64,000 bases of DNA from Candidatus Margulisiibacteriota bacterium (GCA_034723395.1 JAYEOW010000007.1:1-64000), one strand, 5' to 3'. Shown: positions 5,733 through 38,333, numbered from the stretch's first letter. Notes: generated by a model from the letters alone, not told the origin. A program made the numbers and translations.

Positions 5733-5761
5733 GTGAAATTTCGGGAAAATCTACCGGATAC
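5733..5761 (+). promoter_or_regulatory. Alternative-sigma-like promoter motif
   Basis: GTGAAA-N15-CCGGATAC. Confidence 0.65.
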
Positions 5762-5765: not shown

Positions 5766-7988
5766 ATGATGGCGTACATTACAAGAAAAACTTTATCCTG
5801 GCGGCAAATCAATGGGTCTCATCAGAGACTTCTGGGAGAGAAGTGCTATAAGTTGGCACACTATAAGAAGAAAGGTTTTCCTGTCCCCCCTTTCTTTGCG
5901 ATCCCTAATACCCTGGTGGCTGAGATCATAAAAAATAATGCGGTTGCCCCGGGGATAAAAGGGGAGATTCGCGAGCAAATAGGAGAGCTTGAGTCGGAGA
6001 CGGGCAAGAAATTTGGTGGAAATAAAAATCCACTAACGCTTATCGTGCGCAGCGGGGACCCGCGCAACCTGCACGGAGCGTTGCTGTCTCTGATGGGTAT
6101 CGGATTGAATGACATTACTTTTAATTCACTGTTGAGAGAAAATCCCGGGAGAGAGAAAAACATCTGCCGGCTGTACCTGGATCTAATCTTTGATTTTGCG
6201 CTGCATGTTGGGGGATTGAAGAGGTCCCTGGAATATTTGCAGTTGAAGGCGGCAGATCCGAATCTGGGGCTCGTTGATTATAAAAAATTGATCGAAGAGG
6301 CAGAAAGATTTATTTGCCGTTATTCCACGCAGCATTCTCTGCCAAAGGATGTTTATGAGCAGGTATCAGGTGCGGTGATAGGAGTAGCGATGTCCTGGCA
6401 AAAGACCGAAGCCCGGGTGGCCGCAACTTCAATTGGGATAGACTGGAAGAAGGAAATGCCTTCGGTGTTTGTGCAGGAGTTTATGGATGGATCGATGGAG
6501 GATGCATTTGTTAGTATGACTACTCCCCCGCCTTTTGGCAGATATGTGCCCGGAACCTCGGGGCGCTATGTGATGTCAGGTACGCATAGGAAAAAAAACA
6601 CTCTTGGGTATCTGCAGGAAAAGAATCCCACTCTTTATACAAAGGTTATGAAATATGCTGACGGGTTGGTGGCCGAAGAAAAAGCGCCGCTGAATATCGA
6701 AGGAGTGATCTCCGGCGGCAGGTTGAACATTTTCCAGATTTGCCAGGCGAACCTTTCACCCCCTTTTCTGCAGAAAGCGATTGAAGAGATGGAAAAAGGG
6801 AACGTGATCTCGGGGGTAGAGGCGGATCGTATGACGATCGAGTCGGTTGTGCGGAACGACTTTAAATTATTCAAGTTGAATCCGGAAGCGAAATTCAGGG
6901 AGATCGCCCAAGCCTTGCCGGTCATGGGGGTGAGTGGATCACCATCACAGATGGCAATGTGCGGAGATCTGGCATTTACCGTTTCGGAGGCGTTTTTATT
7001 GAAAGACCGTGGGAAGCGGGTGATTTTCTTTTCTACCGATCCCCGCGATGAGAATTTGTATAAACTGCTTCACGGCAGGGGCAACAGAATTATCGATGGC
7101 CTGATTGCCACTTATAGCATTGATAAGCTTGGTTCTCATATTGTTGACATCGCAATGGCGGTCGGCATCCCGGTTGTCGCGTCCCTGAAAGATTATGCGA
7201 TTAATCCCCTGCATGAGATGTTTCCCATGCTTCAGCTTATGCCGTTTTGCGGCCATCGTCTATATATTGGTAATGATAATTATCCGCTTAATTCCGGATC
7301 GCAAATTGTTATCGAGGGGAGGTCGGGAAAGATACTGGTCACAAAACACTCCGAACCAATTGTTGAAGTCCGTACCGTTGTAAATTTGTCTTACGATGTA
7401 AATCTTGGCGGGCTTGTGCGAAGCATGCGCGATTGTTACCAGCCATTTTCATACGAAGATATTTTGGCTGAGCATGGGAAACTTGTTAGGCGGATAGGCA
7501 ATCTTGAGGAAAATAGAAAAGTGGTAAAAGACAAGGGGAAATTGGAGCAGATAAGTGGCGAATTAGGTTGGCTTCAGTCCAAAACGCATGTTTTGCACAT
7601 TTTCGGATATGAAAAGGGAAAAAACAAAGGATTGAGCAGGAGAGATATTGACCTGGACGTCGCGGTAGCGGACGGCAACCTTGGACGGATACCGGGATTG
7701 GAGAATAAGCAGATCGCAATAGAGAGAATTGAAGGCAGGGTAATGATTCTTATCGCTTCCGAAATCGAATATAACGGGACTTATTATCAGGAGGGTGACT
7801 ATGCAAGGAAAGACGCGGGCAGAATTTACGAAGCGGTTAAGGGCAGGGGAGTGACGGTTAGGCAATACATTAAAACTGCCAAATTTTCCAGGCATACTAA
7901 TCAGAGAATAGTTTATGGAATTGAATTAGTAAGAAGCGATCTTGAAGCGGTTGTTGATGTTTTAAAGGATTATTTTAATGAAATTTAA
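5766..7988 (+). CDS. Divergent PPDK-like protein (ATP-grasp + phospho-His domain, unrecognised C-terminus)
   Basis: LLGEK..L....GFPVPPFF, TGKKFG..NPL..IVRSG, IGLND, GSHIV...GIPVV; no PEP/pyruvate barrel. Start moved to ATG 5766/5769. Confidence 0.75.
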   Translation: MMAYITRKTLSWRQINGSHQRLLGEKCYKLAHYKKKGFPVPPFFAIPNTLVAEIIKNNAVAPGIKGEIREQIGELESETGKKFGGNKNPLTLIVRSGDPRNLHGALLSLMGIGLNDITFNSLLRENPGREKNICRLYLDLIFDFALHVGGLKRSLEYLQLKAADPNLGLVDYKKLIEEAERFICRYSTQHSLPKDVYEQVSGAVIGVAMSWQKTEARVAATSIGIDWKKEMPSVFVQEFMDGSMEDAFVSMTTPPPFGRYVPGTSGRYVMSGTHRKKNTLGYLQEKNPTLYTKVMKYADGLVAEEKAPLNIEGVISGGRLNIFQICQANLSPPFLQKAIEEMEKGNVISGVEADRMTIESVVRNDFKLFKLNPEAKFREIAQALPVMGVSGSPSQMAMCGDLAFTVSEAFLLKDRGKRVIFFSTDPRDENLYKLLHGRGNRIIDGLIATYSIDKLGSHIVDIAMAVGIPVVASLKDYAINPLHEMFPMLQLMPFCGHRLYIGNDNYPLNSGSQIVIEGRSGKILVTKHSEPIVEVRTVVNLSYDVNLGGLVRSMRDCYQPFSYEDILAEHGKLVRRIGNLEENRKVVKDKGKLEQISGELGWLQSKTHVLHIFGYEKGKNKGLSRRDIDLDVAVADGNLGRIPGLENKQIAIERIEGRVMILIASEIEYNGTYYQEGDYARKDAGRIYEAVKGRGVTVRQYIKTAKFSRHTNQRIVYGIELVRSDLEAVVDVLKDYFNEI

Positions 7989-7994
7989 AATAAA

Positions 7995-8023
7995 GTGAAA
8001 TTTATTTTTAAACATGGCGAAAC
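7995..8023 (+). promoter_or_regulatory. Alternative-sigma-like promoter motif
   Basis: GTGAAA-N15-GGCGAAAC. Confidence 0.7.
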
Positions 8024-8056
8024 AAAGGTGAAAAATATTTTAAGGGGGTAATTGAT

Positions 8057-9412
8057 ATGTTGGGGAAAGTAGGAGTGTTGAACGGGCCAAAAATTTATTG
8101 GGCGGCAAACGGCGCCAGGGGCGGCGCGGGAGTTTATCGCTCAACTTTTAAAAAATTGTCGATTTATGATCTAGGCAGCCGGATTAAAGGGAAACGTGTC
8201 CTCATTCGCTGCGATTTTAACGGGACCGCAAAAAATGGGGAGATCTTTTCACCTACGAGGATCGACGCGGCGCTTGATACTATAAAACATGTAATGGAGC
8301 AGGGCGCGTCGCAAATAGTACTCCTTTCTCATAATGGGAGAAATAAGCAGATTAAGGCGGAAGGAGAGGGCGTTTATACCCTGGAGCCGGTTGCCCAATA
8401 TTTAACTGGGCAGCTTGGGATAAAGGTTGATTTTGTGAAAGGATTTGGTAAACCGTTAACTTCACAAGCCGGGGTAGTTCTTATGGGAAATACCCGCGCT
8501 GACGCCAGAGACGAAGCAAAAGATCCGGCGGCTAATAAAGCTTATGCCGAAGAAATCCTTGCCACTACTAATCCGGATGTATACATTATAGACGGTTTCA
8601 GTGTGTGCCATCGCGACCAGGCTTCGGTTACCTGGCCGGCAAAATTGATGAAAGAGCAGGGAAAAGCAGCCGTGGCCGGACACCTCCTTGCTGAAGAGTA
8701 TAAATTTTTTATAGACAGCGTGGTAAATAATCCGCAAAAGCCTTTCCTGGTCTTTTTGGGAGGAGCAAAAGTTGAAAGCAAACTGCCGATTCTCGAAGCC
8801 CTCCTTGCCAATGTTGACCAGATTGTGATCGGCGGGGCGATGGCTTTTCCATTTATGCTGGAGAAGGGATATAAGGTTGAGGCAATGGACCCATTTGCCT
8901 CGCGCGAGGGGAGAGCTGAAGAGCTAAGCCGGGAGAGGGTAATTGCCGGAAGGATTTTGCAGGGAATAAATGGACCAAAAGTGATTATCCCGACCCAGAT
9001 AGTTGGCCGGGACAGGACAATCATTGATATCGACAGCAAAGATCCCGCTCCAGAGGGTTTTGTTATGAAGGACATTTTGGCTACAGAGCTGTTTTCAGGG
9101 TTGCAGGCAGTCGGCTACAAAACAATATTCTTTAATGGGACCTTTGGTGCATACGAGGAAAAGCTTGGAGGCCATGTTGAAGGGACTAATGCAGTTTTGT
9201 CTTTTATGGGAGATCAAACTAAGAAAGGGGCGATTACAATCCCAGGCGGCGGTGATACCATTACCGTTTTGAAGGGGCTTCGGAAAATAAGGGAAGTGAG
9301 CTTTTATCATGAAACGACCGGCGGCGGCGCCAGCGGATCGCTGATAACCCTCGGTTTTGCAGGTGATCCGGAAAGCCTGCCGGGGTTTGCTTGTTTAACC
9401 GACAAAGCATAA
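8057..9412 (+). CDS. pgk: Divergent phosphoglycerate kinase with N-terminal extension
   Basis: GKRVLIRCDFN, SHNGR, DGFSVCHR, LGGAKV, GGAMA, FNGTFG, GGGDT, TGGGAS. Confidence 0.85.
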   Translation: MLGKVGVLNGPKIYWAANGARGGAGVYRSTFKKLSIYDLGSRIKGKRVLIRCDFNGTAKNGEIFSPTRIDAALDTIKHVMEQGASQIVLLSHNGRNKQIKAEGEGVYTLEPVAQYLTGQLGIKVDFVKGFGKPLTSQAGVVLMGNTRADARDEAKDPAANKAYAEEILATTNPDVYIIDGFSVCHRDQASVTWPAKLMKEQGKAAVAGHLLAEEYKFFIDSVVNNPQKPFLVFLGGAKVESKLPILEALLANVDQIVIGGAMAFPFMLEKGYKVEAMDPFASREGRAEELSRERVIAGRILQGINGPKVIIPTQIVGRDRTIIDIDSKDPAPEGFVMKDILATELFSGLQAVGYKTIFFNGTFGAYEEKLGGHVEGTNAVLSFMGDQTKKGAITIPGGGDTITVLKGLRKIREVSFYHETTGGGASGSLITLGFAGDPESLPGFACLTDKA

Positions 9413-9433
9413 TTTTTAATATTTTAAAAAAGA

Positions 9434-9462
9434 GTGAAATTTTTTAAAAAATGGTTTGATAA
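9434..9462 (+). promoter_or_regulatory. Alternative-sigma-like promoter motif
   Basis: GTGAAA-N15-TTTGATAA. Confidence 0.65.
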
Positions 9463-9500
9463 ATAAGTGAGAGTAATTTTAGTAAATTTGAAGGAGGAAA

Positions 9501-10925
9501 ATGGAAATGGCAATTACAGCAGCAACAAGGAATATCAGGTTCGCGGTTAGAGGTTTCGGCGGTGAGATCGGAGATACGATGACCAGAGTTTTAATGGCAA
9601 TGAACAGGGGTAAATTTAGAGCTTTTAAACAGGTCACTGGTGAATCGATCACCGCTTTGATCAGACACAAAGAAGGGATGTCGCTAAACGCGACGGTAAG
9701 AGCTGATCGGTCATTTGCTAAACTAGAAAGAAGAGGCGCTCTGGCAACAAATACTGCCTCTTCCTATGCATATATCCCAACAATTGAAGCTGTTGTGTTT
9801 GATAAAGAGGTTGGTGGAAGGGTCCATATTCACGGAACAGATGGAAGAGTTCTAACCGTAGATTATAAGCCGGTCCCTTCGTCCAATGTGGATCGACCCG
9901 AACTAGATAACCTTGATTTCCTGATCGATGCTACCGGAGTAGGGCTTAAGAAGGATGCCGGATTACAGCATCCAGGACATTATGCCAATTATGATAATTT
10001 AACCGTACTTTTTAGCGCGCCGATTAAAACGGTAAAAGGAGTCCCTCATCACCTGAACGGTTTAAATCTGGTATCTGCGGAACAATTAAATGCTACGGGT
10101 TCTTGCTCGACTCACGCGGGAGTGGACGTTATTCGCTATATCAGGGAAGGAATTATGGAGAAGTTAGGACTAGGTGAGGGTGAAATAATAATCGAAGGGG
10201 GGCATTTTAATGCAACCCATTCGTTAACCCCTTCAGATGCCAAAGTGCTTCCTTATTATGACAGCGCTTATATCCCGCAAACGACCGGCTTTGGCAGCGC
10301 GGCCGGAGTTGTATACCCGGTCAGCCATATAGGGAATATTGCGGCGGCTACCGGCAGATATAATTCATTCTTTAAGCAGGGAGATGTTGAAGCTAACGGA
10401 ACTTCAATATTCTCGCTGGCGATGACCATCTCGGTTAAGCATAGGAAAGAACCTGTAACCCACGAAACTATCCAAAGGGCTCTGCTTAACGCAGCCAGCG
10501 ATCCGGAGGGGAGCAAACATATTGGGGTATTAAAAGATGTAGTTAAGTTAAAAACCAATAAAAGGGCCGGTTACTTTACCTCACTTTCCATCTCCGGCAT
10601 GCCTCAGACTGCAATCCTGTCAGTTGGACCAGATAATATTTCCGTTGTCAAAATAGGGGGGAAGAAGGTTGACGAGCAGGGGAACGAATTTGATATGTAC
10701 GTGGTTACGATCAATAATGTCGGATATGATAACCGGCTCGGATTTACTGTCGATATGCTGGACGAAGCAAACGGGATTACCGCTAAACGGTTGGGAACGG
10801 AGCTTATCCCCCGATTCCATCATGTAGATGACTTGGGCAATAACTTAGCCTTTATCTCTTCCACGGTTGGGAGACAATTGTTTGCAAACGCGGTAGCAAA
10901 GACCGGCGGGCAATTGTTAGTCTAA
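9501..10925 (+). CDS. Highly divergent glyceraldehyde-3-phosphate dehydrogenase-like protein
   Basis: GFGGEIG, IDATG, FSAP, GSCSTH (catalytic Cys), HSLT, IPQTTG, YDNRLGF; 474 aa, much longer than typical GAPDH. Confidence 0.75.
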   Translation: MEMAITAATRNIRFAVRGFGGEIGDTMTRVLMAMNRGKFRAFKQVTGESITALIRHKEGMSLNATVRADRSFAKLERRGALATNTASSYAYIPTIEAVVFDKEVGGRVHIHGTDGRVLTVDYKPVPSSNVDRPELDNLDFLIDATGVGLKKDAGLQHPGHYANYDNLTVLFSAPIKTVKGVPHHLNGLNLVSAEQLNATGSCSTHAGVDVIRYIREGIMEKLGLGEGEIIIEGGHFNATHSLTPSDAKVLPYYDSAYIPQTTGFGSAAGVVYPVSHIGNIAAATGRYNSFFKQGDVEANGTSIFSLAMTISVKHRKEPVTHETIQRALLNAASDPEGSKHIGVLKDVVKLKTNKRAGYFTSLSISGMPQTAILSVGPDNISVVKIGGKKVDEQGNEFDMYVVTINNVGYDNRLGFTVDMLDEANGITAKRLGTELIPRFHHVDDLGNNLAFISSTVGRQLFANAVAKTGGQLLV

Positions 10926-10951
10926 AACTGTTTGGTACGCGTAAGTTTAAT

Positions 10952-10984
10952 AACAGGCTGGGAGAGATCCCGGCCTGTTTTTTT
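10952..10984 (+). terminator. Rho-independent terminator
   Basis: AACAGGCTGGGA-gaga-TCCCGGCCTGTT followed by a T run. Confidence 0.8.
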
Positions 10985-11000
10985 ATTATCCGGGTAAAAA

Positions 11001-11029
11001 GTGAAATTTTGGGGCGGTTTTAACGAAAA
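11001..11029 (+). promoter_or_regulatory. Alternative-sigma-like promoter motif
   Basis: GTGAAA-N15-AACGAAAA. Confidence 0.7.
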
Positions 11030-11050
11030 ATACCCGGAGGATCTTGACAA

Positions 11051-14000
11051 ATGGCAATAACTGGAATAGGGCCCCGAATATTCAAGCTTATTAACACCCG
11101 CAGGGATAAATACGCGTACCATGTGCAAAAGAACGGCTTAGCTTTTGAACTGCGTGATGGGAGGCTATTTCTTTCCGCCATTACCCGGGGACCTTGGGGA
11201 CAGCGCAAGATTGCCGAAGCGGTTGAACTGGCGCTTGATCCTCAGGTAATCCAGGGATTACTTCTGAAAGGGATCCACCAATTTACATTACCGGCGAAAG
11301 TTTCGCTGGAACAGGTGGAAGCGGTGTGTAGAGGGGACCTGTCTTCGGTGGCCAGCGGGATTAAATATGACTATAGATCATCTGTTGACCAACTGGTGAA
11401 GGGGGTGGGCGATCCCAATGGGGTTGTGAAAGTGTTGATTGATCATATTCCCCAGGTTAAACCTGAACACCAAAGACAGTATTATGAAACCTTGAAAGAT
11501 ACTTTTGACAATCCTTCGCTTACGCCTGCTTCCCGCAAGCTCATATTAAACGCAATGTCTGCCAAGGTTGCTTCGCTTGAAGGGTCCCGGAGTGAAGGCT
11601 ATTTTTACTGGAGCGCGCTGGCGATTTTGCAATCCAATAATATTAGTGAAGCCGATTATGGGGTGGAAGTGGAGCGCTTGATCGCGTTGGCTATCCAAAA
11701 TATGAACGAAAAATATCCGGCGGGAGCCAACAACGTTGCGCTGGATTATATATCTTTTATCTCTTCATTTTTTGCCCGCAATCAGAATGTCTCCTGGGTG
11801 GCAGCTCTTTCCTCTAAATATTTCCGCGCGATTTGCGATAACGCGCTGGCTAAATCAAAAGAGCATGCTGGCGACCAAATGGTGGTAAACCGGATGTTTA
11901 TGGACCTTGTCCGCGACCTCGGGGCGCTTGAGGGTGAAAGAGGATATCTTGAAGGGTTTATTCCGCGGGTGAGCAGTTATTTTATTGAAGCTTTACAATC
12001 GGGATCTGCGGCTGATTGCGCGCGTTTGATCGATGGGTTAACCATGGCTGGAGCGCAGGTCATAGGCTTAAAGGATCGCGCTTTGGTGTATGTAATAGTG
12101 CCTGACCTGGTAAGGCCTTTTGAGATCCTGTCCAGCAAGAGATTTGAGGCGACCAACAGCACAGGCAAGTATAGTAAAGAAGATTATGACCAGATTGACC
12201 AATTAAAGAGGGCTTCAAGACATGCGGCCCGCCAGCTTTTTGAGTTGATTACAAAAAACCCGCAGGAAGCGGCCCCTTTAATGGTCCGCCTAACTTTTAT
12301 TTTGAAGAATGAGGGATTTAATTTTGCGGACTATACTTTGATACAGGGGGAGATAAGCCGCCTTTTACATTGTGATCTTGCGCCGATCTGGCATATTGCC
12401 CGCCAGCTCATAAAAGCGATCCCGTATTCCTGGAGGGAGATTGGAGTAAGCGATTCTGTCAATCTTGTCCGGTCAAGCGGGGATAAAAAGGCTGATCCTT
12501 CTACCATGCGTAAGGTTTCGGAAGATGTTGATAGGCTCGGCGGAAATAAAGGGATACTGCACCTGCTAAGAGTCCAGATCCATTCATCTTCGAGCAAACA
12601 GAACGTTGATCTGATGGATAAGATTTTTGAATTTTGGATGACGGGCAATGCAGAGATTTTTAAAAAGCTTGAAACCTCCGAAGCATTTCTCCAGCTGATG
12701 GCGGAAGAAGGTAAAAGAGGCCATACAAGAGCCTCTTTAATCGGCTATGAAAAAGACCAACCGCAAATACAGGTTCTCTTTGCCGCCCTGGCGCGGGCGC
12801 GGGGGTTAGATCGCCTGGGGATGGATGACTTATATGAGATTTCTATGGACCAGGCCCGCCAGGTATTTGATAAATGCCGGGATGTCAGCCATGTCTCCAA
12901 AGAAAAAACAATGTTAATGCTCCATCTTTATCAATTGATTAGGGATAAATATGGGGTATACGCCGGGAAACTCACAGATGAGGTCCGGCATAGCAGTTAC
13001 TGCAGTGGATATAATAGTTCAACTGTGAGTAAGGAGCTGGCCGCCGCGGTTGACGCGTACGAGAAAGATCCGGCGGCGGAGACAGCCCTCGCGCTGATGC
13101 GGCAGCTGCATATCGCAAGGCGCTGGGCGAAACGGAAGCTTCAAGCCGCAGGAGAATTCGATGAAGATATAGCCATGAGCCAGATCTATGAAAAGCGGCA
13201 TGTTGCTCCTTTTCGTTCGGGTACCTGGGGGACATATTCTGAGCCTAAATTTGATCTTTTTAACCTGGACCGGATTCTCGAAGATTATCAGAACCTGATT
13301 ATTGAGAAGATATTTGGAGAGCATTTTGCAAACTTAAGTAAAGAAAGCTTGCCCCTGTTTTTGTCCGGAATGTATGAGCTTATCCTGGCCACTTTTGATA
13401 ATGGGATCGGCTCCACCAGCCTGCTGTCACTGGCTAATATGCTAAAGATATCGTCTATCAGCCGCTCCCAGGTAAGGGACCTTTCGGCCATGCTGGCAAG
13501 GCAGTGCCGGGGGGTTGTCGACCGTTTAAACAGCGAATATCGTTTTGGCAGGCAGGTGGATGACCAGGATGCTATTAAAAGGGAAGAAACGTTTATGGGG
13601 AACCTGGTTGCGGGAGAGGTCGGTTTTAAGCGGTTTGGTGGGGAGGTGGATAGATTAAGATTGTTTTTAAATGGTCTCCTGGAAGTTGAAGGAGATGGAT
13701 ATCTTTATGAAAAGCATGCCCCTAGTTTAGGGCCTGTTGAGCTGATGCCGGTTATCGGGCAGTGGGACCGAAAGGACCTCCCAAAAAGATATTTTTTGGG
13801 CGGCAAGGCGGCGAACCTGTTTCGTATGCGGCAAGAGGGACTTCCTGTCCCGGAAGGGTTTACTATTTCGGCTGAATTTTTTAAGAGAGAAACTCCAAAG
13901 GGGCAGGTTTACGATCAACATTTGAAGGAGGGGGTCGACCGCAGGAATTTTAAGCTGGCCGTGCAGGAGCGGATCGCTGGTATTGAAGAGGGGACTGGGA

Positions 14001-15268
14001 AAAAGTTTGGAGGAGATAAAAATCCTTTAATTTTTTCGGTCCGTTCCGGCAGTGTTATCTCTATGCCCGGCCAGATGGAAACAATAACCAATGTCGGCCT
14101 AAATGATGTGGCCGTCGGAGCCCTGGAAAAAGAGACCGGTAATAAATGGTTTGCTTACGATTGTTATCGCAGGTTTATCCAATCCTATGCGATGGGCGTG
14201 CATGGTATCAGCAGGAAAACATTTCACCAAATAATTGAAACGTATAAAAAGGGGAGAGGCGTACGTAAAAAATCCGAACTTACAGGGGACGATATGCAAC
14301 AGATTGCCCAGGCCTATGGCGCCAAGGTAGAAAGTTTGGGCTATTCAATTCCTCAGGGCCCAGTAGAACAGTTGTGGGAGGCCATCTGGGCGGTTAATCG
14401 ATCATGGTATAGCGAGAGGGCTACTTCATATAGGAAAAACCTGGGCATTTCGGACAGGTGGGGTACGGGCATAAGTGTCCAAGTGATGAAGTTTGGAAAT
14501 CGAAATGATAAATCCTTGACCGGCGTGCTCCTTACCCACGATCCAATAACCGGACAGAAGAAGCTGCAAGGCAGTTTTAAGTACAACGCGCAGGGGAATG
14601 ATGTTGTGGATGGGGTAGGGGGCAGTATTCTTGATTTGAAAGACCTTCGCTGCAAAGCTCCCGAAGTTTACCACAAATTGGTTGAAGGAGCGGAAAAAGT
14701 TTTAAACAGGCTTGCAACCCCTCAAGAGATGGAGATTACGGTTGAAGCAACGGAAGCCGGGTCTCTAGAAGTTTATTTTCTCCAAACCCGGGACCTTAAT
14801 ATTCAGCATAAACCATTTCCGGTTTTTGACGAAGCGGCTTTGTCGGGTATGCGTTATATCGGTTTAGGCGCGCCAATCGCTGGCGGGGCTTTTAGGGGAA
14901 GAGTTATCTTGGACCCGGCGGAGATGATCGGGCTCAATAAAAAAGCGCCGGCCAGAAAGATGGGGGAAATAGGCTTTGCTTATTTCGCGAACGATCTGGT
15001 GCCTGAGGATATCGAACTAATTATTGCCGGTGACGCGTTTTTGATCAGGCAGGGATCGCCGACCTCCCATGCCGCGATCACTTTAAGGCCCCTCGGAAAA
15101 ACCGGGATTGTTTTCCCCGGTTTTGATAAACAGGGAGATCAGGTCAGGATCGGAGATCTGATTGTACGGAAGAACGAAATAATCAGTTTCGACGGGAGGA
15201 CAGGAAGGGTGTTTTTGGGCAGAGCGCCATTATTACGGGATGCTTCTGGAGCCCTAATATTGAAGTGA
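11051..15268 (+). CDS. Large atypical PPDK-family protein (about 900 aa N-terminal region + ATP-grasp + phospho-His domain)
   Basis: LGGKAANL, GLPVPEGF, SVRSG..SMPGQMETITNVGLND, AYDCYRRF, AQGNDVVDG, LQTR, TSHAA; ends after the His domain. Confidence 0.85.
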   Translation: MAITGIGPRIFKLINTRRDKYAYHVQKNGLAFELRDGRLFLSAITRGPWGQRKIAEAVELALDPQVIQGLLLKGIHQFTLPAKVSLEQVEAVCRGDLSSVASGIKYDYRSSVDQLVKGVGDPNGVVKVLIDHIPQVKPEHQRQYYETLKDTFDNPSLTPASRKLILNAMSAKVASLEGSRSEGYFYWSALAILQSNNISEADYGVEVERLIALAIQNMNEKYPAGANNVALDYISFISSFFARNQNVSWVAALSSKYFRAICDNALAKSKEHAGDQMVVNRMFMDLVRDLGALEGERGYLEGFIPRVSSYFIEALQSGSAADCARLIDGLTMAGAQVIGLKDRALVYVIVPDLVRPFEILSSKRFEATNSTGKYSKEDYDQIDQLKRASRHAARQLFELITKNPQEAAPLMVRLTFILKNEGFNFADYTLIQGEISRLLHCDLAPIWHIARQLIKAIPYSWREIGVSDSVNLVRSSGDKKADPSTMRKVSEDVDRLGGNKGILHLLRVQIHSSSSKQNVDLMDKIFEFWMTGNAEIFKKLETSEAFLQLMAEEGKRGHTRASLIGYEKDQPQIQVLFAALARARGLDRLGMDDLYEISMDQARQVFDKCRDVSHVSKEKTMLMLHLYQLIRDKYGVYAGKLTDEVRHSSYCSGYNSSTVSKELAAAVDAYEKDPAAETALALMRQLHIARRWAKRKLQAAGEFDEDIAMSQIYEKRHVAPFRSGTWGTYSEPKFDLFNLDRILEDYQNLIIEKIFGEHFANLSKESLPLFLSGMYELILATFDNGIGSTSLLSLANMLKISSISRSQVRDLSAMLARQCRGVVDRLNSEYRFGRQVDDQDAIKREETFMGNLVAGEVGFKRFGGEVDRLRLFLNGLLEVEGDGYLYEKHAPSLGPVELMPVIGQWDRKDLPKRYFLGGKAANLFRMRQEGLPVPEGFTISAEFFKRETPKGQVYDQHLKEGVDRRNFKLAVQERIAGIEEGTGKKFGGDKNPLIFSVRSGSVISMPGQMETITNVGLNDVAVGALEKETGNKWFAYDCYRRFIQSYAMGVHGISRKTFHQIIETYKKGRGVRKKSELTGDDMQQIAQAYGAKVESLGYSIPQGPVEQLWEAIWAVNRSWYSERATSYRKNLGISDRWGTGISVQVMKFGNRNDKSLTGVLLTHDPITGQKKLQGSFKYNAQGNDVVDGVGGSILDLKDLRCKAPEVYHKLVEGAEKVLNRLATPQEMEITVEATEAGSLEVYFLQTRDLNIQHKPFPVFDEAALSGMRYIGLGAPIAGGAFRGRVILDPAEMIGLNKKAPARKMGEIGFAYFANDLVPEDIELIIAGDAFLIRQGSPTSHAAITLRPLGKTGIVFPGFDKQGDQVRIGDLIVRKNEIISFDGRTGRVFLGRAPLLRDASGALILK

Positions 15269-15297
15269 AATATCTCCCAGATATTTTCTTAAAAAGT

Positions 15298-15346
15298 ATC
15301 CCGACGCTTCGGTCGGGATCCCGTTCCGATCTGATCGGAAGGGGAA
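15298..15346. repeat. Palindromic element (ATCCCGA..TCGGGAT family)
   Basis: Two adjacent hairpins; related element at 19988-20011. Confidence 0.55.
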
Positions 15347-15374
15347 AATCATGTGGAAAGTATTTTCCAGAAAA

Positions 15375-15403
15375 GTGAAATTTTTAAGAAAAGGCACCGA
15401 TAA
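15375..15403 (+). promoter_or_regulatory. Alternative-sigma-like promoter motif
   Basis: GTGAAA-N15-ACCGATAA. Confidence 0.75.
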
Positions 15404-15433
15404 ATATTTGGAAGAAAAAGGAGAATCAAAACC

Positions 15434-15643
15434 ATGAGTTTAAGAGAATTTAGATGTAAGTTTTGCCACAGACTTCTAGCAAAAGTAGAGGAAGGAAGCA
15501 AGGTAGAGATCAAGTGCCCAAAGTGCAAAACGATGAACCTTTATCAGGATGAGACGGTTATTGTGTATGAAGTTCCTGAGAACAATGTAACCAAAAAGAT
15601 CCTCGAAAAGGGGATTGTTAAGTACGATTTCTTGCAGAACTAA
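15434..15643 (+). CDS. Mu Com-like zinc-finger protein
   Basis: EFRCxxCxRLL...VEIKCPKCKT.N; AGGAG RBS. Confidence 0.8.
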   Translation: MSLREFRCKFCHRLLAKVEEGSKVEIKCPKCKTMNLYQDETVIVYEVPENNVTKKILEKGIVKYDFLQN

Positions 15644-16425
15644 GCGTGGTTAATCTTGATCTTCTCCAGTAAAATGGTCCTAAGTCGTTCACTACACTGT
15701 AGTTTTGTTGCCTTTTCCCTTAATTTGTTGTAGGCTCCCATCCAATAATCTTTCCACGTTTCACTGTGTACCGAAGGCCAAGGCATTTTTACATTTGCCA
15801 AAGCAACCTCACCGGTTAACATTTCATAAAGGGAGAGGCCCAGGCCAAAATGGTCGTCTTGTGGTCGGATTGGATAGCCCCGCATATGGCTTAGGGTCAT
15901 ATATTGTAAGGTCCCAACCACTCTGCGATTAATTTTTTCTTGGCCTGCGATAGGTCTTGCGCGCTCAAAATCTGCCAGTTTTACCGTTGCGCCGGGAAGG
16001 ATATTTTCGGTTTTTACGTCTCCATGTGCTAATCCATGCTGATGAGCATGCGAAAGCGCCGAAGATATCCCCTGGTTTATCCTTAAAACCTCGGCTTCGG
16101 GGAATGGTCCAGTAATCTTTATCTTTCTTTTTGCGTCGGCTGAATCGACGTATTCCATCTCAAGATAAATATTCCCGTCAATTCTGCCGCAACCATGCAG
16201 AGCGGTAATGTTTGGATGGGGGAGCAGTAAGTCCAAAACCATCGCCTCTCTTAACAGATGATCCTGCGAAGAAGTTCGAGCAACTTTTAGGGCAAACCAC
16301 TGATTTTTGGGACCGCGGACTTTAAATACCTGTGTTTTTCCTTGTAAAGCTACTCTTTCCCCTGGTTTCAGATTGCGGGAACCGCGAATTATTTTTCTTA
16401 AGTTTACATATGTTGTGGCGTTCAT
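15640..16425 (-). CDS. Hanks-type Ser/Thr protein kinase, atypical
   Basis: ALK, HPNI, HGDVKTEN, ADFE (DFG variant), GTLQYM. Confidence 0.85.
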   Translation of the reverse strand: MNATTYVNLRKIIRGSRNLKPGERVALQGKTQVFKVRGPKNQWFALKVARTSSQDHLLREAMVLDLLLPHPNITALHGCGRIDGNIYLEMEYVDSADAKRKIKITGPFPEAEVLRINQGISSALSHAHQHGLAHGDVKTENILPGATVKLADFERARPIAGQEKINRRVVGTLQYMTLSHMRGYPIRPQDDHFGLGLSLYEMLTGEVALANVKMPWPSVHSETWKDYWMGAYNKLREKATKLQCSERLRTILLEKIKINHA

Positions 16426-16440
16426 TATCTTTCTGAACTA

Positions 16441-16468
16441 ATATCGCCGGTTTTGCGGAGGGATTTCA
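16441..16468 (-). promoter_or_regulatory. Alternative-sigma-like promoter motif
   Basis: Minus strand TGAAA-N15-GGCGATAT. Confidence 0.75.
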
Positions 16469-16472
16469 GTAG

Positions 16473-17717
16473 TTAATTAATAATATGCAGGCTCTTTTTC
16501 AGAACGTTTAGTGCTGCCTCGTACAGCCCTTCCGGATGACTGGGATGTGCTTGTAAAGTTCCTGACAGCTGATTAACGGTTAATCCATTTTTTACTGCAA
16601 CGACTGCTCCTCCTAAAAGATTTACCGCATCTGCTCCAAGGATATGGATCCCAAGTAATTTATTGCTATCATCCGCGACAACTTTAATAAAACCTTCGAT
16701 CTCACCCTTAGCTTGCGCGATCCCTAATGCTGCATAAGGGAATTTACCGGTCTTGATATTTCCATGCTTTTCTCTGGCTTCTTTTTCGGTCAGCCCAATC
16801 CCGCCAATCTCAGGGGTAGTAAATATTCCGTACGGAACATGATCGTAATTAAATGTTCTATTTCCTCCCATAGCATTCTCCGCAGCAATAATCCCTTGTT
16901 CGAAAGCGACATGGGCCAGTTGTTTAGAGCTGACCAGATCTCCAATTGCATATACCCCCGGTTTATCGGTCTCCATCTTTGCGTTAACTTTGATCCCCGG
17001 AGTATTCGGTTTTCGGCCGATACAGATCAACGTTTTATCCGAGGTTTTTGATGGATCAAAAGGGGTGTTGGTAATTATGTTTACTTTTTTACGTTTAAGG
17101 ATTCGTTTAAGATTAGCTACGATATCCTCGTCCACTCCCGAAAGAATATCCGGGAGCGCTTCGTAGACGGTTACTTCAGTTCCTAACGAACTAAATATCT
17201 GAGCGAACTCGATTCCAATCACACCGCCGCCGACAATTGTCAATTTATCAGGAACTTCTTTAAGATCTAATATCTGGTCACTCGAAAAATATCGCTTGCC
17301 ATCGAATTCTATTCCTGGTAGTTGGGTGGGGTAAGATCCGGTAGCAAGGATTATTTTTTCCCCATCACTTTTTCCATCCCATGTATCATGAATAAGGTCG
17401 ATCCCGTTCTTTTTAAGTAACAGTTCGACCCCTCTAACGATCTTTTCAACGGTCTTATCTTTCCGCTCTATTACTTTTGCTAAATCGATTGCTGTGCCTT
17501 GAGTGGTTATCCCATAATTTTCAGATTTCCTGATTTTATCGTAAAGGTTTGTGCAGGCTAAGATAGCTTTAGTAGGAATGCAGCCTCGATTGAGACATGT
17601 TCCGCCGACTTTATCTTTTTCGATTAGAGCAACCTTAGCTCCAAGTTGTGCAGCTCGAATTGCGGCTATATATCCTCCAGGGCCACCGCCAACGACTAGA
17701 ATGTCATACTTGTTCAT
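16473..17717 (-). CDS. lpdA: Dihydrolipoamide dehydrogenase
   Basis: GGGPGGY, GGTCLNRGCIP, GGGVIGIE, HPSHPE. Confidence 0.9.
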   Translation of the reverse strand: MNKYDILVVGGGPGGYIAAIRAAQLGAKVALIEKDKVGGTCLNRGCIPTKAILACTNLYDKIRKSENYGITTQGTAIDLAKVIERKDKTVEKIVRGVELLLKKNGIDLIHDTWDGKSDGEKIILATGSYPTQLPGIEFDGKRYFSSDQILDLKEVPDKLTIVGGGVIGIEFAQIFSSLGTEVTVYEALPDILSGVDEDIVANLKRILKRKKVNIITNTPFDPSKTSDKTLICIGRKPNTPGIKVNAKMETDKPGVYAIGDLVSSKQLAHVAFEQGIIAAENAMGGNRTFNYDHVPYGIFTTPEIGGIGLTEKEAREKHGNIKTGKFPYAALGIAQAKGEIEGFIKVVADDSNKLLGIHILGADAVNLLGGAVVAVKNGLTVNQLSGTLQAHPSHPEGLYEAALNVLKKSLHIIN

Positions 17718-17759
17718 TCTAAGTGGATTATAGCATATTGATAACGAAAAGTAGTAGGT

Positions 17760-18105
17760 GCAGGGGCTCTGCCCCTAGCAAGATAAGCTCTAGTTTCTTG
17801 TTTTATATTCCATGATACCCCGGTAACTTTTTTGGTGGCAAAAAAGTTACCAAAAAACCACATAAGGGGTTCCCCCTTATGTATCCCCGCGCAACTAACT
17901 CGGCCGGACACAGCAATCCCTCGACTTCGCTCGGGATTGCTCTGCCGGCCTCGAACAGAGCTGCTAATAATGTTTTTTATTGTTTTAATCGAAAACTAAA
18001 TGTTTGTGTTCCCCCTCTCCACGAAGTGGAGAGGGGAATGAATTGCGCCGGCTTGTCCTCTGAAGCACTAAGTGCGAAGGAGGAAGGCGCAAGAAAGGGG
18101 TGAGG
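17760..18105. repeat. Intergenic cluster of nested palindromes / MITE-like repeats
   Basis: AGGGGC..GCCCCT; GTAACTTTTTTG..CAAAAAAGTTAC; ATAAGGGG..CCCCTTAT; GCAATCCCTCG..CTCGGGATTGC; CCCCTCTCCAC..GTGGAGAGGGG. Confidence 0.65.
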
Positions 18106-18908: not shown

Positions 18909-19009
18909 AGAAAATCACCTCATATTTTATCTGTTCATTATAAGCTAAATCAGATAAGAAGGTCAAGAAAATTAATCTGAATATCGGTAAGATCGGGAAC
19001 ATCATATAC

Positions 19010-19041
19010 CCCTTCGACTCGCTGCGCTCGCTCAGGGCATG
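19010..19041 (+). repeat. REP-like element CCCTTCGACTCGCTnCGCTCGCTCAGG
   Basis: Near-identical copy at 40591-40623; inverted relative at 5638-5677. Confidence 0.75.
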
Positions 19042-19974
19042 CCCCTAAGAGGTCTTTCTGATAGCGACCAGTCGGGGTCTCAGGATTCAACTTTTGCAAG
19101 TATAGCATGGAATGATAGTCCAAGATAATTGGCGGGAATGAAAGCGCCGCGGGATCAATCCGTTCCTGGCTTTCCGCTAGTATTTCGATTGGTATTTTTC
19201 CCCACTTGTAAGAATTAGGCCTTTTGTAATTAAAAACTATCTGATAAGTATAAGCCTTGTTGAGAAAATCAATCTGGTTATCATAATCTTCCAGATCAAA
19301 GAAATGGTATTCAATAATTCGATTAAAAGTCTCAATGTCTGCATTGTAATTAGGCCGGCCTCGGGGAATTCTGATATGTTTAGCTCCATAAACCTTAGAT
19401 ACTGAGGGATATCGTCCAGATACTTAACATCTACCTGAATCTTCTCAAAAGGTCGTAATTTGGCTTTAATAGCCCTCAGATCCCGCTTCTTTTGGTATTT
19501 CCTCTTCCGTTTGCCAATCAATCCGTGATCCTTAAGCACGCGATAAATTGTACAGGTTGAATATGGCAATTTGAGCGAAGCCTTAATCGCCCAGCAGGAA
19601 ATCCGGTTCTTGCGTCTTTTTCTCAACGCCACAATCCTTTCCTCGTCAGCCTTCGGAATCTTTCTGGGCTGTTTTGGTCCCCTTGACTCATCCAATAAAC
19701 CATCCAGCCCCTTAGTCGTATACCTCCTGTGCCATTTACGAACTGTTACTACTGAAGCCATATATTCCTTGGCAGTTGGTTTAATACCGATTTCCTGTAC
19801 TCTTTGTACCATTTTTAACCTCCATCCATATTTATTCGCCGATAGCCTAAGGTTCTCATAATATGTTATGCTTACTATAGGGATCACTCCTTTCTATGTG
19901 TTGTTGCTAACATCATTATAAGGGTGGTCCCCAGCCTTAAAAAGGCTTGATTTTCCCGCCCTCAATAATTTACA
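19040..19974 (-). pseudogene. IS481-family transposase remnant with internal deletion/frameshift
   Basis: HTH region (TVRKW..RY...GLDGLLDESR), IQVDVKYL, then a frame switch to HIRIPRGRPNYNADIETFN; TGT-starting end at 19974. Confidence 0.8.
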
Positions 19975-20153
19975 AATAATGCCGGCGGGATCCCGATCGA
20001 AGCATCGGGACATGTTTTTTGTGATTTTTTTGATATAGCCACCCCGAAACCACCTCCCCAACCCAAACACCCCTTTACCATCGAGAAACCCTATTTCTTC
20101 TAATCCCAGGGGTATACCATGTTCCAGATCATTTCTAATTAATCTAAATATAG

Positions 20154-20182
20154 GTGAAATTTTAGCCTTTTGGGAGCGATAT
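20154..20182 (+). promoter_or_regulatory. Alternative-sigma-like promoter motif
   Basis: GTGAAA-N15-AGCGATAT. Confidence 0.75.
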
Positions 20183-20194
20183 TTATATGTAGTT

Positions 20195-20851
20195 ATGCGA
20201 GTGAAATTAGAAGGAATAAACGTTTGTCACTCTCTAGGTGGCAGAAAATATCAGAAAGAACTTCCTCGGATCAGGCAGATTGCCCGGCAGGCTGCTTTTG
20301 CGCACAGGGTCCTCGGCCGGATCCGGCCCGAAGCGGGTTCTATTGGGGAAAGGGTAGACAGGGCTTGCGGGTTTGCTGCCCGGACCATGCTGACCGCCCA
20401 TACACTTTTTGATGAAATGAAGGCGCAGGAGACATCAGATGCTTTTCTCTGTGACGGCCTGCTGCTTAATAAGCGGGTTGTCCAAGTGATGCGGGGAGGG
20501 CGTACCCACGGGGTTTTGGTTTTTGATCTCGGCAGCGAGTGGATTGTGGCTGATCCGACCATTGCTCAGTTTGCCCTCAACGCAAAACTGGCGCGCCTGA
20601 AATCCAGGCCAGGAGCTTTTTCAGAGAGTTTCTTGGATGTGCAATTGTTTCTTGCATCAGTTCATCCGACTGAAAACGATTTTTCCAGCAGAATGCAGGA
20701 GCTTTTTGGCCAGTCGTCCTGGCAACGGCTCTCTCCCTTTGACCCCGCGGTCCGCAGGGTTAACCGGCGTTTTTTATTGTTCTATCGTTCAGACCTTCTT
20801 TCATTTAAAGAGTATATCAGGTTCCATATGGAGAATCTTGAAAATGGGTGA
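20195..20851 (+). CDS. Hypothetical protein, possible transglutaminase/papain-like Cys-His-Asp enzyme
   Basis: RACGFAA ... THGVL ... IVADPTIAQF. Confidence 0.55.
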   Translation: MRVKLEGINVCHSLGGRKYQKELPRIRQIARQAAFAHRVLGRIRPEAGSIGERVDRACGFAARTMLTAHTLFDEMKAQETSDAFLCDGLLLNKRVVQVMRGGRTHGVLVFDLGSEWIVADPTIAQFALNAKLARLKSRPGAFSESFLDVQLFLASVHPTENDFSSRMQELFGQSSWQRLSPFDPAVRRVNRRFLLFYRSDLLSFKEYIRFHMENLENG

Positions 20852-20876
20852 AATTATTTATAATAGGTGCCGAAAA
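20848..20876 (+). promoter_or_regulatory. Alternative-sigma-like promoter motif
   Basis: GTGAAA-N15-GCCGAAAA. Confidence 0.75.
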
Positions 20877-20906
20877 ATAACTAGATAGATTCAAGGAGGA
20901 ATAATT

Positions 20907-22226
20907 ATGCCAGGAATAAGCACTTTAATAACAAATCCTCGAGTCGAAGGCTATAGAAAACGAAATATTAGGATCGGGATATTGCATTCGGGCGGACCGG
21001 CGCCGGGTGGTAATAAAGTTCTTTATGCTGCCGCGCTCCGCGCCCTGGATCACGGGGTCGGATTAGTTGCCTTTCAACACGGATATGAGCATTTAATGAG
21101 CAAGAAAGCATCTGAGGTTGCTGCAAGATGGGCAATTGAAGTCGGACGCGAGCAGATCCGCTATTTACGTGATCAAAATTTCCTTCTTCCGGGCACCGCC
21201 CGGGCCAATCCCGGCAAAGCCATTGAAAATATCGACAACTTACAGGACCAGGGGAGAACCAAAGCTTTAACTAAGGTCATAGATGTTTTTGAGGCGCTAA
21301 GGATAGGAGCGCTTATCTCGGTCGGAGGGGATGATACGATGCGGACGGCCAACCTCCTGCAAATACATCACGCCAATCTTGTTGGTGCGGGAAGAGCGTT
21401 TAGCTGTTTCGAAGGAGTTGTCCACGTTCCAAAGACTATTGATAAGGATTATCCCGGGATCGATTTTACTTTTGGGTTTATTACCGCGTCCCAGGTTATA
21501 GGCAAGAAAATACGTCGGTTGCGCGCAGATGCCCGCGCTACCGCTACCAGCAAACAGCTGGTTTATCATATTGTTGAAGTCATGGGAAGGACGGCCGGAT
21601 GGCTGACGGCGGCTTCTTCAATTTACGGCCAGGCTACCTACGCGATCATACCGGAAGATTTTTCCGAACGCAGGGATTGGACCGTCCAGGAATTGGCGAA
21701 AAAGTGTGCGGACGTGATATTGACCAGGAAAAACCAGGGGAAAAATTACGGTGTGATCACGATATGCGAGGGATTGGGAGACCTAATTGTGGCCGACCAA
21801 ACCAAGGTAAAGGACGAGTTTGGTCACACTCGGCATGCCGAAGCGGATCTTTGCGGGAATCTAAAAAGGGCGATCGCCGCAGAACTTGCCGTGCGCTCGA
21901 AAATAAGTTTTAAATCGACGGCGAGTAAGGCTGGTTATGAGGCCAGACAGGCTGAACCCAATATTTTTGATGAGCTGCTTTGCCTGCAGCTGGGTATTTC
22001 GGCGGTCAATGCGGTTTTTTCGGGAAAATTCGGCAATATGGTTTCGATCAAGGAAGCTTTAACTCCTAAATTGGTTCCTTTCAGCGGCTTGTTTGATCCA
22101 CAGACGGTCAAAGTGAAAAATTGGATCTTAAGCCCGGAAGAAGGGCTTTGGCAATTGTTACACGGCATGGAACAGCCTTTTGAAACCGGAGTTATTGATG
22201 CTGATCCGGAAACCAGAATAGGATAA
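20907..22226 (+). CDS. Divergent 6-phosphofructokinase, probably PPi-dependent
   Basis: SGGPAPGGN, GGDDT, PKTIDKD, EVMGR..GWL, GYEAR. Confidence 0.88.
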   Translation: MPGISTLITNPRVEGYRKRNIRIGILHSGGPAPGGNKVLYAAALRALDHGVGLVAFQHGYEHLMSKKASEVAARWAIEVGREQIRYLRDQNFLLPGTARANPGKAIENIDNLQDQGRTKALTKVIDVFEALRIGALISVGGDDTMRTANLLQIHHANLVGAGRAFSCFEGVVHVPKTIDKDYPGIDFTFGFITASQVIGKKIRRLRADARATATSKQLVYHIVEVMGRTAGWLTAASSIYGQATYAIIPEDFSERRDWTVQELAKKCADVILTRKNQGKNYGVITICEGLGDLIVADQTKVKDEFGHTRHAEADLCGNLKRAIAAELAVRSKISFKSTASKAGYEARQAEPNIFDELLCLQLGISAVNAVFSGKFGNMVSIKEALTPKLVPFSGLFDPQTVKVKNWILSPEEGLWQLLHGMEQPFETGVIDADPETRIG

Positions 22227-38330: not shown

Positions 38331-38333
38331 TTT

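What the first reader, a model, noticed from the sequence alone, without database searches (positions are those of the whole stretch)
5766..22226. A fast-evolving 'second glycolysis' plus effector-like enzymes under one promoter, possibly exported
Seen: the motif-bearing genes encode very divergent PPDK-like (x2), PGK, GAPDH and PPi-PFK proteins, a kinase and a Cys-His-Asp protein. The adjacent enolase is textbook-conserved and sigma70-driven. Their N-termini are non-hydrophobic, acid-poor and rich in R/K/T/I/G/N: MAYITRKTLSWRQING, MLGKVGVLNGPKIYWAANGARGG, MAITAATRNIRF, MAITGIGPRIFKLINTRR, MNATTYVNLRKIIRGSRN, MPGISTLITNPRV. Known: acid-poor uncleaved N-termini are typical of type III/flagellar export substrates, and late substrates are often sigma28-controlled. 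Inference: these enzymes may be delivered into a host/prey cell or a special compartment to redirect carbon and ATP metabolism, or serve a stage-specific pathway.
Basis: inference. Interest (0 to 1): 0.85.

Follow-up and report, generated by a model that had tools for sequence, protein, structure and literature searches.

The report
Export-tagged enzyme copies in Saganbacteria
These genes are fast-evolving second copies of sugar-metabolism and signalling enzymes, each with its own flagellar-type promoter and an acid-free front end, in an uncultured bacterium that keeps a flagellum-like export machine without filament or motor, so they are most likely proteins it delivers into a host cell, probably another bacterium.

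Summary
In this Saganbacteria/WOR-1 genome (Margulisbacteria), each of the seven genes has its own sigma28-spaced promoter (TGAAATT-N15-CGATAW). There are about 107 copies versus 1-6 in shuffles, and 7-178 strict copies in all 65 class genomes. Housekeeping gap, pgk, pfk and ppdK lie elsewhere. Motif-driven proteins have acid-poor N-termini (0.56 vs 2.38 D+E in residues 2-21, p=8e-23), replicated in two relatives. The PGK-, GAPDH- and PFK-like copies keep their catalytic residues. The two "PPDKs" lack the pyruvate barrel, and no complete second glycolysis exists. The genome has a full flagellar-type export gate, rod and L/P rings, but no flagellin, stator, FliG torque domain, VirB4, TssC or sheath. 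Other cargo (RelA/SpoT, sigma factors, CheR without chemoreceptors) points to a bacterial target. FlhA and FlhB+FliP+FliR trees put this machine on the injectisome side of flagella; FliI does not. Export is inferred, not shown (about 0.6). The scan found the regulon and the motorless machine before on other DNA of this genome. New here: the leader statistic linking them, the cargo's nature and the tree position.

The parts
4279..5613 (-). Canonical enolase, only copy in the genome; no regulon motif; weak sigma70-like site at 5717-5689
5733..5761 (+). sigma28-type promoter (score 20.7, imperfect -10); ATG about 10 nt downstream, leaderless-like
5766..7988 (+). PPDK-like 1 (740 aa): degenerate ATP-grasp domain, phospho-His domain (H458), unknown C-terminal domain; no PEP barrel
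7995..8023 (+). sigma28-type promoter (26.7)
8057..9412 (+). PGK paralog (451 aa) with about 31-residue acid-free leader; active-site residues kept; long-branch clade
9434..9462 (+). sigma28-type promoter (30.3)
9507..10925 (+). GAPDH-fold protein (472 aa), invariant C200, H238 and YDNR; S-loop region shortened; family invisible to Pfam
10952..10989 (+). Intrinsic terminator (12-bp stem plus T run)
11001..11029 (+). sigma28-type promoter (31.5)
11051..15268 (+). PPDK-like 2 (1405 aa): about 900-aa N-terminal domain, ATP-grasp, C-terminal phospho-His domain (H1340); member of a widespread 1370-1410-aa dikinase-like family, here with an acid-poor N-terminus
15375..15403 (+). sigma28-type promoter (36.1)
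15434..15643 (+).
   Evidence: PF10122, E 7e-11
15640..16425 (-). Ser/Thr kinase (261 aa; K, HGD and DFE motifs) with acid-poor leader
16441..16469 (-). sigma28-type promoter (23.1, GAAATC variant)
16473..17717 (-). Dihydrolipoamide dehydrogenase-like housekeeping gene (read from its motifs); not in the regulon; also flanks the paralog cluster in G119
19237..19887 (-). IS481-like transposase fragment
20154..20182 (+). sigma28-type promoter (31.5)
20195..20851 (+). Orphan (218 aa), possible papain/transglutaminase-like Cys-His-Asp enzyme
   Evidence: weak
20848..20876 (+). sigma28-type promoter (26.4)
20907..22226 (+). PPi-type PFK paralog (439 aa; GGDD and PKTIDKD motifs) with about 20-residue leader
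3067..3405 (+). Promoter (35.0) plus conserved 94-aa regulon protein with an acidic N-terminus, probably not cargo

Best explanation
The genes belong to a genome-wide late regulon read by a FliA/sigma28-like sigma factor (shown: motif, spacing, two FliA-like genes; inferred: which sigma reads it). Most regulon proteins carry an uncleaved, acid-poor, non-hydrophobic N-terminus of about 10-40 residues (shown) that acts as a type III export signal (inferred). They leave through the class's filament-less, stator-less flagellar-type machine (shown: gene set; inferred: function). That machine has an export gate, ATPase, rod, L/P rings and a short rod-like FlgE. The cargo enters a host cell, most likely a bacterium (inferred). 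There, PGK, GAPDH, PPi-PFK and the dikinase-like enzymes redirect sugar-phosphate, ATP and PPi flux, while RelA/SpoT, sigma factors, kinases and CheR override regulation. My odds: export 0.6; delivery into a host cell of any kind about 0.55; bacterial host given export about 0.7.
For: Leader bias: 58 of 64 vs 294 of 1021 proteins with <=1 acidic residue in positions 2-21. It holds against first-in-unit genes (n=360, p=3e-20), for strong-RBS starts (n=21, p=8e-8) and in G142 (8/9 vs 5/33) and G086 (8/10 vs 9/24). It fades by about residue 60 and is absent at C-termini (p=0.08). PGK leaders are unalignable, yet 9 of 11 carry <=1 acid versus 2-4 in all 107 canonical hits. Complete export genes. 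No flagellin, FliG_C (36), MotB (112), or FlgK/FlgL/FlgD/FlhF/MotA (44). No VirB4, TssC, sheath or BMC hit; both secretins sit in type IV pilus clusters (108, 117), and only 5 of 69 regulon proteins have a hydrophobic N-terminus (24). Cargo includes 2 RelA/SpoT, 2 extra sigma70, 3 HATPase proteins and CheR, in a genome with no MCP or CheW. A related Margulisbacteria lineage attaches to spirochetes (title only).
Against: No secretion, host or expression data. No FlgM, and no needle-tip, translocon or chaperone was identified. [quoted passage not shown] The regulon also contains rpoD, Sec/Tat/lipoprotein precursors and a conserved acidic 94-aa protein, so it is not cargo only. The GAPDH-like leader is about 8 residues and absent as called in 5 of 16 family members. 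Start codons for regulon genes were chosen relative to the promoter. Arg/Pro enrichment did not replicate in G142 or G086.
Confidence: 0.5

Rival explanations
1. An internal stage programme, like the Bdellovibrio attack-phase FliA regulon. The paralogs work inside the cell in one life stage, and the leaders are degradation or localisation tags.
For: FliA controls two thirds of attack-phase promoters in Bdellovibrio, including non-flagellar genes (PMC3627812, passages). The regulon includes rpoD and envelope proteins. Catalytic residues are kept.
Against: CheR has no receptors in this genome. Cargo is patchy and fast-evolving: PGK-like in 4 of 64 other class genomes, GAPDH-like in 3 of 64. The export machine is kept without a known extracellular structure to build.
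Confidence: 0.25
2. The cargo is exported into a eukaryotic host (an anaerobic protist), with the Arg-rich, acid-free leaders doubling as mitochondrial or hydrogenosomal presequences.
For: Leaders are Arg-rich and acid-free in G000, with a small helical-moment excess (0.605 vs 0.562 +/- 0.015 shuffled). A marine Margulisbacteria lineage is intracellular in Trichoplax (preprint passages). PPi-PFK and PPDK are typical of anaerobic protists (recalled).
Against: Sigma factors, RelA/SpoT, CheR and histidine-kinase-type proteins need bacterial targets. Leaders are Pro-rich and not Leu/Ala-rich.
Confidence: 0.12
3. The proteins are exported but not injected: they go to the periplasm, surface or medium and act as moonlighting adhesins or extracellular enzymes.
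For: No translocon was found. GAPDH and PGK moonlight on surfaces in other bacteria (recalled). GH16 and GH116 glycosidases are in the regulon.
Against: ATP-, PPi- and NAD-dependent active sites are conserved. Sigma factors and RelA/SpoT have no use outside a cytoplasm.
Confidence: 0.08
4. Decaying or horizontally acquired accessory genes; the N-terminal bias is a by-product of AT-rich, leaderless mRNA starts or of start miscalls.
For: Many starts lie 10-17 nt after the -10 box. An IS481 fragment lies inside the cluster. PPDK-like 1 has lost several ATP-grasp residues.
Against: The bias is the same with strong RBS. Lys (AT-rich codons) is depleted while Arg and Pro rise, and Gly and Ala (G-start codons like Asp/Glu) are not depleted. 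Open frames and invariant catalytic residues persist across 16 GAPDH-like and 12 PGK-like sequences.
Confidence: 0.05

Closest known systems
Buchnera aphidicola flagellar basal body and secreted SyeA (PMC13468123, passages read; PMC8109811, search listing only)
   Same: Basal body and type III export genes kept without a filament; proposed secretion of an effector with a variable N-terminus.
   Different: Buchnera is a single reduced flagellum in an insect symbiont with few predicted effectors (8). Here the machine is a separate ancient paralog that coexists with a true flagellum in one clade, lacks FlgK and FlgD, and comes with about 60-70 leader-bearing genes under a sigma28-type promoter.
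Myxococcus 'needleless' T3SS* (PMC12075869 passages; PMC3459982 passages)
   Same: A type III export apparatus without secretin or needle, used against bacterial prey; early-branching relative of injectisomes.
   Different: Myxo systems lack FlgBCDEK, FliEG and FlgH. This machine keeps FlgB, C, F, G, H, I, FliE, a short FlgE and FliK, so it has its own outer-membrane passage. Its cargo looks like metabolic and regulatory takeover enzymes rather than lytic toxins.
Bdellovibrio bacteriovorus FliA attack-phase regulon (PMC3627812, passages)
   Same: A sigma28-type promoter expanded into a global regulon in a bacterium that lives on bacteria; similar -10 box (CCGATA).
   Different: Bdellovibrio has a real flagellum. 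The passages read report no N-terminal export tag or duplicated central enzymes.
Pyruvate phosphate dikinase (TIGR01828) and rifamycin phosphotransferase-type swivel dikinases
   Same: ATP-grasp domain plus phospho-His domain.
   Different: No PEP/pyruvate barrel; scores 108 and 328 vs cut-off 843. PPDK-like 2 has a 900-aa N-terminal domain shared with an uncharacterised 1370-1410-aa family; the acceptor substrate is unknown.

Membership tests
sigma28 (FliA) promoter/regulon | -35/-10 boxes with sigma28 spacing and CGATAA-type -10 | tested here: met
   GAAA, 17 nt, CGATA; 106 of 107 sites share one spacing. A spacer one base shorter gives 2 vs 50 strict sites in G000. Enteric consensus recalled; Bdellovibrio consensus.
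sigma28 (FliA) promoter/regulon | Cognate FliA-family sigma factor | tested here: inconclusive
   Two FliA-like genes inside the export clusters, both under the TIGR02479 cut-off (135.6 and 75.1 vs 189.6); which one reads the motif is unknown.
sigma28 (FliA) promoter/regulon | FlgM anti-sigma checkpoint | tested here: not met
   PF04316: no match at E<=1; FlgM is short and divergent, so it may be missed.
Motile flagellum | Export gate, MS ring, rod, L/P rings | tested here: met
Motile flagellum | Flagellin, hook cap and junction proteins | tested here: not met
   flagellin-family hit in 1 of 65 class genomes and 15 of 146 phylum genomes
Motile flagellum | Stator MotAB and FliG torque domain | tested here: not met
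   FliG is 154 aa without FliG_C; no MotB; the MotA/ExbB hit lies beside ExbD-like and TonB-like genes
Injectisome (NF-T3SS, Abby and Rocha criteria) | Core sctJNQRSTUV homologs | tested here: met
   FlhA passes neither cut-off (770.8/772.1 FlhA; 661/692 SctV); FliI passes both FliI clade 2 and SctN cut-offs.
Injectisome (NF-T3SS, Abby and Rocha criteria) | Secretin SctC and absence of flgB, flgC, fliE | tested here: not met
   flgB, flgC and fliE are present; the two secretins are in type IV pilus clusters
Injectisome (NF-T3SS, Abby and Rocha criteria) | SctF needle, tip and translocon | not tested
   No profile search was run; no candidate seen in the two clusters
Type III export substrates | Uncleaved, non-hydrophobic, acid-poor, sequence-variable N-terminus | tested here: met
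Type III export substrates | Export depends on the type III gate | not testable with these tools
   Needs an experiment
GAPDH | Fold and catalytic Cys/His | tested here: met
GAPDH | Sequence-profile match (Pfam, NCBIfam, PDB) | tested here: not met
Phosphoglycerate kinase | PF00162 over cut-off and substrate/ATP-site residues | tested here: met
PPi-dependent PFK | GGDD and PKTID motifs | tested here: met
   best model NF041103 scores 195 vs cut-off 550
Pyruvate phosphate dikinase | C-terminal PEP/pyruvate-binding barrel | tested here: not met
Complete second glycolytic pathway | Second copy of every step | tested here: not met
   One enolase only; no TPI, aldolase or phosphoglycerate mutase family among the 72 regulon proteins scanned

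The most novel reading that the evidence does not exclude
Saganbacteria are parasites of other bacteria that inject dozens of leader-tagged enzymes and regulators into the host cytoplasm to take over its carbon, ATP/PPi, stringent-response and transcription machinery. The injector is a third kind of type III system: a flagellar rod and ring assembly with a straight short 'hook', surviving from the stem lineage between flagella and injectisomes.
Probability: 0.3. Interest if true: 0.95.

Novelty: new variant of a known kind. Interest (0 to 1): 0.8.

Why it matters
It would assign a lifestyle (host takeover) to a whole uncultured class next to Cyanobacteria, so far described mainly through hydrogen metabolism. 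It gives a sequence rule (promoter plus acid-free leader) that lists candidate effectors in 65 genomes. It would be a type III system that reprograms a bacterial host rather than lysing it. It also offers a living system that keeps the flagellar rod and rings yet groups with injectisomes in two of three trees, which makes the order of steps in the flagellum-to-injectisome transition testable. It also shows GAPDH can drift beyond all sequence profiles while keeping its catalytic site.

Tried and rejected
No relative of the GAPDH-like protein was found by the pattern scan of genome contigs, and no PDB sequence hit with the single protein or the 16-row profile; only the fold search worked. Single-sequence folding of the 218-aa orphan failed (pLDDT 39). 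One search used a spacer one base too short and serves only as a control. The FliI/SctN tree (29 rows) was uninformative to conflicting: SctN was not one group, and the long-branch ATPase outgroup rooted inside the Margulisbacteria clade. No RNA holder was listed. The Termititenax genome paper was not held. Word searches of earlier findings and the relatives look-up returned nothing. Rejected: one shared promoter; a microcompartment; T4SS, T6SS or eCIS export (one marker each); a C-terminal basic signal; C24:16939 PFK as a regulon member (no motif, normal N-terminus). The complex-prediction job was not used.
Full report
Setting. The window is G000:C7:1-64000 of a 1.68-Mb, 97%-complete genome. 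Named top homologs of the PGK-like and GAPDH-like proteins are Ca. Saganbacteria, candidate division WOR-1 and Ca. Margulisbacteria, so I treat it as class WOR-1. Gene calls outside the window come from my own hexamer caller (1646 genes).

The genes. The interval holds PPDK-like 1 (5766-7988), PGK-like (8057-9412), GAPDH-like (9507-10925), PPDK-like 2 (11051-15268), a Com zinc ribbon (15434-15643), a Ser/Thr kinase (15640-16425, minus), an orphan (20195-20851) and a PFK-like gene (20907-22226). Housekeeping genes and an IS481 fragment lie between them. Canonical ppdK (C29), gap and pgk (C38) and two pfk (C24) exist elsewhere; enolase is single. In a 42-row PGK tree, the 12 divergent copies form one group (SH-aLRT 100) on a 0.71 stem, apart from 14 canonical class PGKs; their source is unresolved. 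Substrate and ATP-site residues are kept (residue roles recalled). The GAPDH-like protein has 16 homologs among 8000 scored candidates, none with a Pfam domain, invariant C200, H238 and YDNR, a confident model and GAPDH as best fold. The PFK-like protein has the GGDD/PKTID signature of PPi use (signature recalled). Both PPDK-like proteins have ATP-grasp and phospho-His domains but no PEP barrel. The larger belongs to a widespread 1370-1410-aa family whose two fetched members begin with acidic N-termini. So these are dikinase-like enzymes of unknown acceptor, and the set is not a complete pathway.

The promoter. Each gene has its own copy of TGAAATT-N15-CGATAW, and a terminator separates GAPDH-like from PPDK-like 2. 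A matrix scan finds 107 sites at score >=18 against 1-6 in three Markov shuffles; the matrix was trained on the same genome, so the contrast is somewhat inflated. The untrained strict pattern gives 50 sites in G000 and 7-178 in each of 65 class genomes, versus 0-2 for the reversed control; other classes have 0-67. A spacer one base shorter gives 0-12. The spacing equals that of sigma28 promoters (recalled; Bdellovibrio consensus). Two FliA-like sigma genes sit in the export clusters; one follows flhA across the phylum. No site lies in the export clusters themselves, as expected for a late class.

The leaders. Of 109 sites at score >=16, 95 had a downstream gene. I kept 69 genes (score >=18, start within 70 nt, >=100 aa) and set aside 5 with hydrophobic N-termini. 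The remaining 64 average 0.56 Asp+Glu in residues 2-21 versus 2.38 in 1021 background proteins (p=8e-23). Arg is 2.31 vs 1.0, Pro is up, Lys is down, Ile and Gly are unchanged, and the bias is gone by about residue 60. It survives a first-gene control, a strong-RBS subset and an independent start rule (64/69 vs 67/225). It replicates in 200 kb each of G142 (8/9 vs 5/33, p=1e-4) and G086 (8/10 vs 9/24, p=0.027), where only the acid depletion, not the Arg/Pro excess, holds. Against: the GAPDH-like leader is short or absent in 5 of 16 homologs, and the housekeeping PPDK, ATP-PFK and GAPDH also start acid-poor.

The cargo. Of 72 motif-driven proteins outside the window, 42 have no Pfam hit at E<=1e-4. 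The 30 others include 2 RelA/SpoT, 2 extra sigma70 proteins plus RpoD itself, 3 HATPase proteins, CheR, a Ser/Thr kinase, a PP2C, phosphoglucomutase, YvcK/CofD, an amino-acid kinase family enzyme, an NTP transferase, an ADP-ribosylglycohydrolase, a third PPDK_N protein and three glycosidases (12 further rows in that call were hand-picked and are not counted). The genome has no MCP or CheW, so CheR lacks its own substrate. Four relatives carry similar clusters around the divergent PGK, with transaldolase, TPI, class II aldolase, FBPase, malic enzyme, iPGM, GAPDH or PFK copies, many with their own motif. In G119 the cluster lies between enolase and the same dehydrogenase gene as here. Distribution is patchy: PGK-like in 4 of 64 and GAPDH-like in 3 of 64 other class genomes.

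The machine. C55:175-10789 and C46:20422-28960 encode FlgF, G, A, H, I, a 100-aa FlgJ-position ORF, FlgB, C, FliE, F, G, H, I, J, FlhA, FlhB, FliR, Q, P, O, N, M, a 271-aa FlgE without the D2 domain, and FliK. FliG is 154 aa and lacks the torque domain. Flagellin, MotB and FlgM profiles find nothing, and FlgK, FlgL, FlgD, FlgN, FliW, FlhF and MotA of relatives give no tblastn hit. FlhA is in 135 of 146 phylum genomes, flagellin-family genes in 15, and 13 of these (G058-G070) have two or more FlhA matches. For four of them I placed both copies: one with G000's, one with true flagella. One marker each for T4SS, T6SS, contractile sheath and BMC was negative; the secretins belong to type IV pili. 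Caveat: outside this class many flagellin-less genomes have MotB next to FliG_C-domain proteins, so 'motorless' is shown for this genome and 60 of 64 other class genomes only.

Tree position. In a 175-row FastTree (support 99) and a 43-row mixture-model tree (SH-aLRT 96), this FlhA clade falls with SctV and three unnamed FlhA-annotated proteins, apart from flagellar FlhA. Forcing it together with the phylum's own flagellar FlhA is only marginally rejected (AU p=0.043; the group was named after seeing the tree). FlhB+FliP+FliR (32 rows) gives the same split (SH-aLRT 98). FliI does not. The trees are unrooted, so sister to injectisomes and outgroup to all flagella are both open. Abby and Rocha name Myxococcales systems, which lack rod and L-ring, as the intermediate (PMC3459982, passages); this machine keeps them.

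Mechanism and odds. Shown: promoter, leaders, paralogy, catalytic residues, gene set of the machine. Inferred: which sigma acts, that leaders are export signals, that cargo enters a cell, and that the cell is bacterial. I give 0.5 to delivery into a host that is probably bacterial, 0.25 to an internal stage programme, 0.12 to a eukaryotic host, 0.08 to export without injection and 0.05 to decay.

Literature. Searches returned no listing that describes this regulon or machine in Margulisbacteria (listings and abstract starts only, except as noted). The main text of Matheus Carnevali 2019 (PMC6349859) has zero occurrences of flagell, type III, secretion or motil (two passages), and the Trichoplax preprint has none of flagell or type III. 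I did not read supplements of these papers, and the Termititenax paper (title seen) was not held; either may mention the partial flagellar gene set. Earlier scan notes on other DNA of this genome already reported the regulon and the motorless machine; they are AI notes, and I tested both independently before seeing them.

Verdict. Real and unusual. New variant of known kinds (Buchnera basal-body secretion, Myxococcus T3SS*, Bdellovibrio FliA regulon), with a 0.3 chance of being a new kind of inter-bacterial takeover system. Interest 0.8.

Noticed in passing
window 3067-3405: 94-aa helical protein behind a top-scoring motif, found in 27 of 146 phylum genomes (all in this class), with the motif kept in 9 of 13 other loci checked. 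Its N-terminus is acidic, so it is a candidate chaperone or regulator of the regulon.
   Followed up: partly
window 15434-15643 and G000:C4:43457-43642: Two Com-like zinc ribbons; only the window copy has the motif.
   Followed up: no
G000:C46:681-1712; L080, L083, L086, L087, L091, L092, L094, L096: flhA is followed across the phylum by one or two small unknown ORFs and a short FliA-like sigma; in G000 the pair lies about 18 kb away. Candidate anti-sigma or chaperone.
   Followed up: partly
G044:C275:28828-30123, G040:C21:93228-94540, G012:C5:86288-87583: 480-500-aa proteins with a FliG_C domain lie next to MotB-plug genes in many flagellin-less genomes of other classes: a possible separate motor module.
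   Followed up: no
P0145, P0166, P0220, P0148, P0253, P0287: Other FlhA-annotated proteins branch between flagellar FlhA and SctV; one is named Ca. Binatus. They may mark more filament-less systems.
   Followed up: partly
G000:C29:80566: rpoD has a copy of the motif (GAAATC variant, like the window kinase).
   Followed up: no
G126:C4:62270-62632; G007:C64:1277-1687: Stray flagellin-family hits in 245-253-aa frames in genomes outside the flagellated clade.
   Followed up: no
window 5625-5685, 17750-18100, 18990-19050, 15290-15330, 19985-20015: Palindromic intergenic repeats; two copies share one hairpin sequence.
   Followed up: no
window 25103-30538: Two tandem glycosyltransferase-like genes, a HAD-type phosphomutase-like gene and a 771-aa glycoside phosphorylase-like gene (read from sequence).
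   Followed up: no
window 36000-42000: Low-GC island (35-37%) with a cytosine methyltransferase-like gene, a probable restriction enzyme, a Vsr-like gene and nucleotidyltransferase-like genes (read from sequence).
   Followed up: no
G000:C16:19442-26763: Cluster of an 1838-aa gene and smaller orphans, two with acid-free N-termini but no motif at score >=16; possible extra cargo or structural parts.
   Followed up: no
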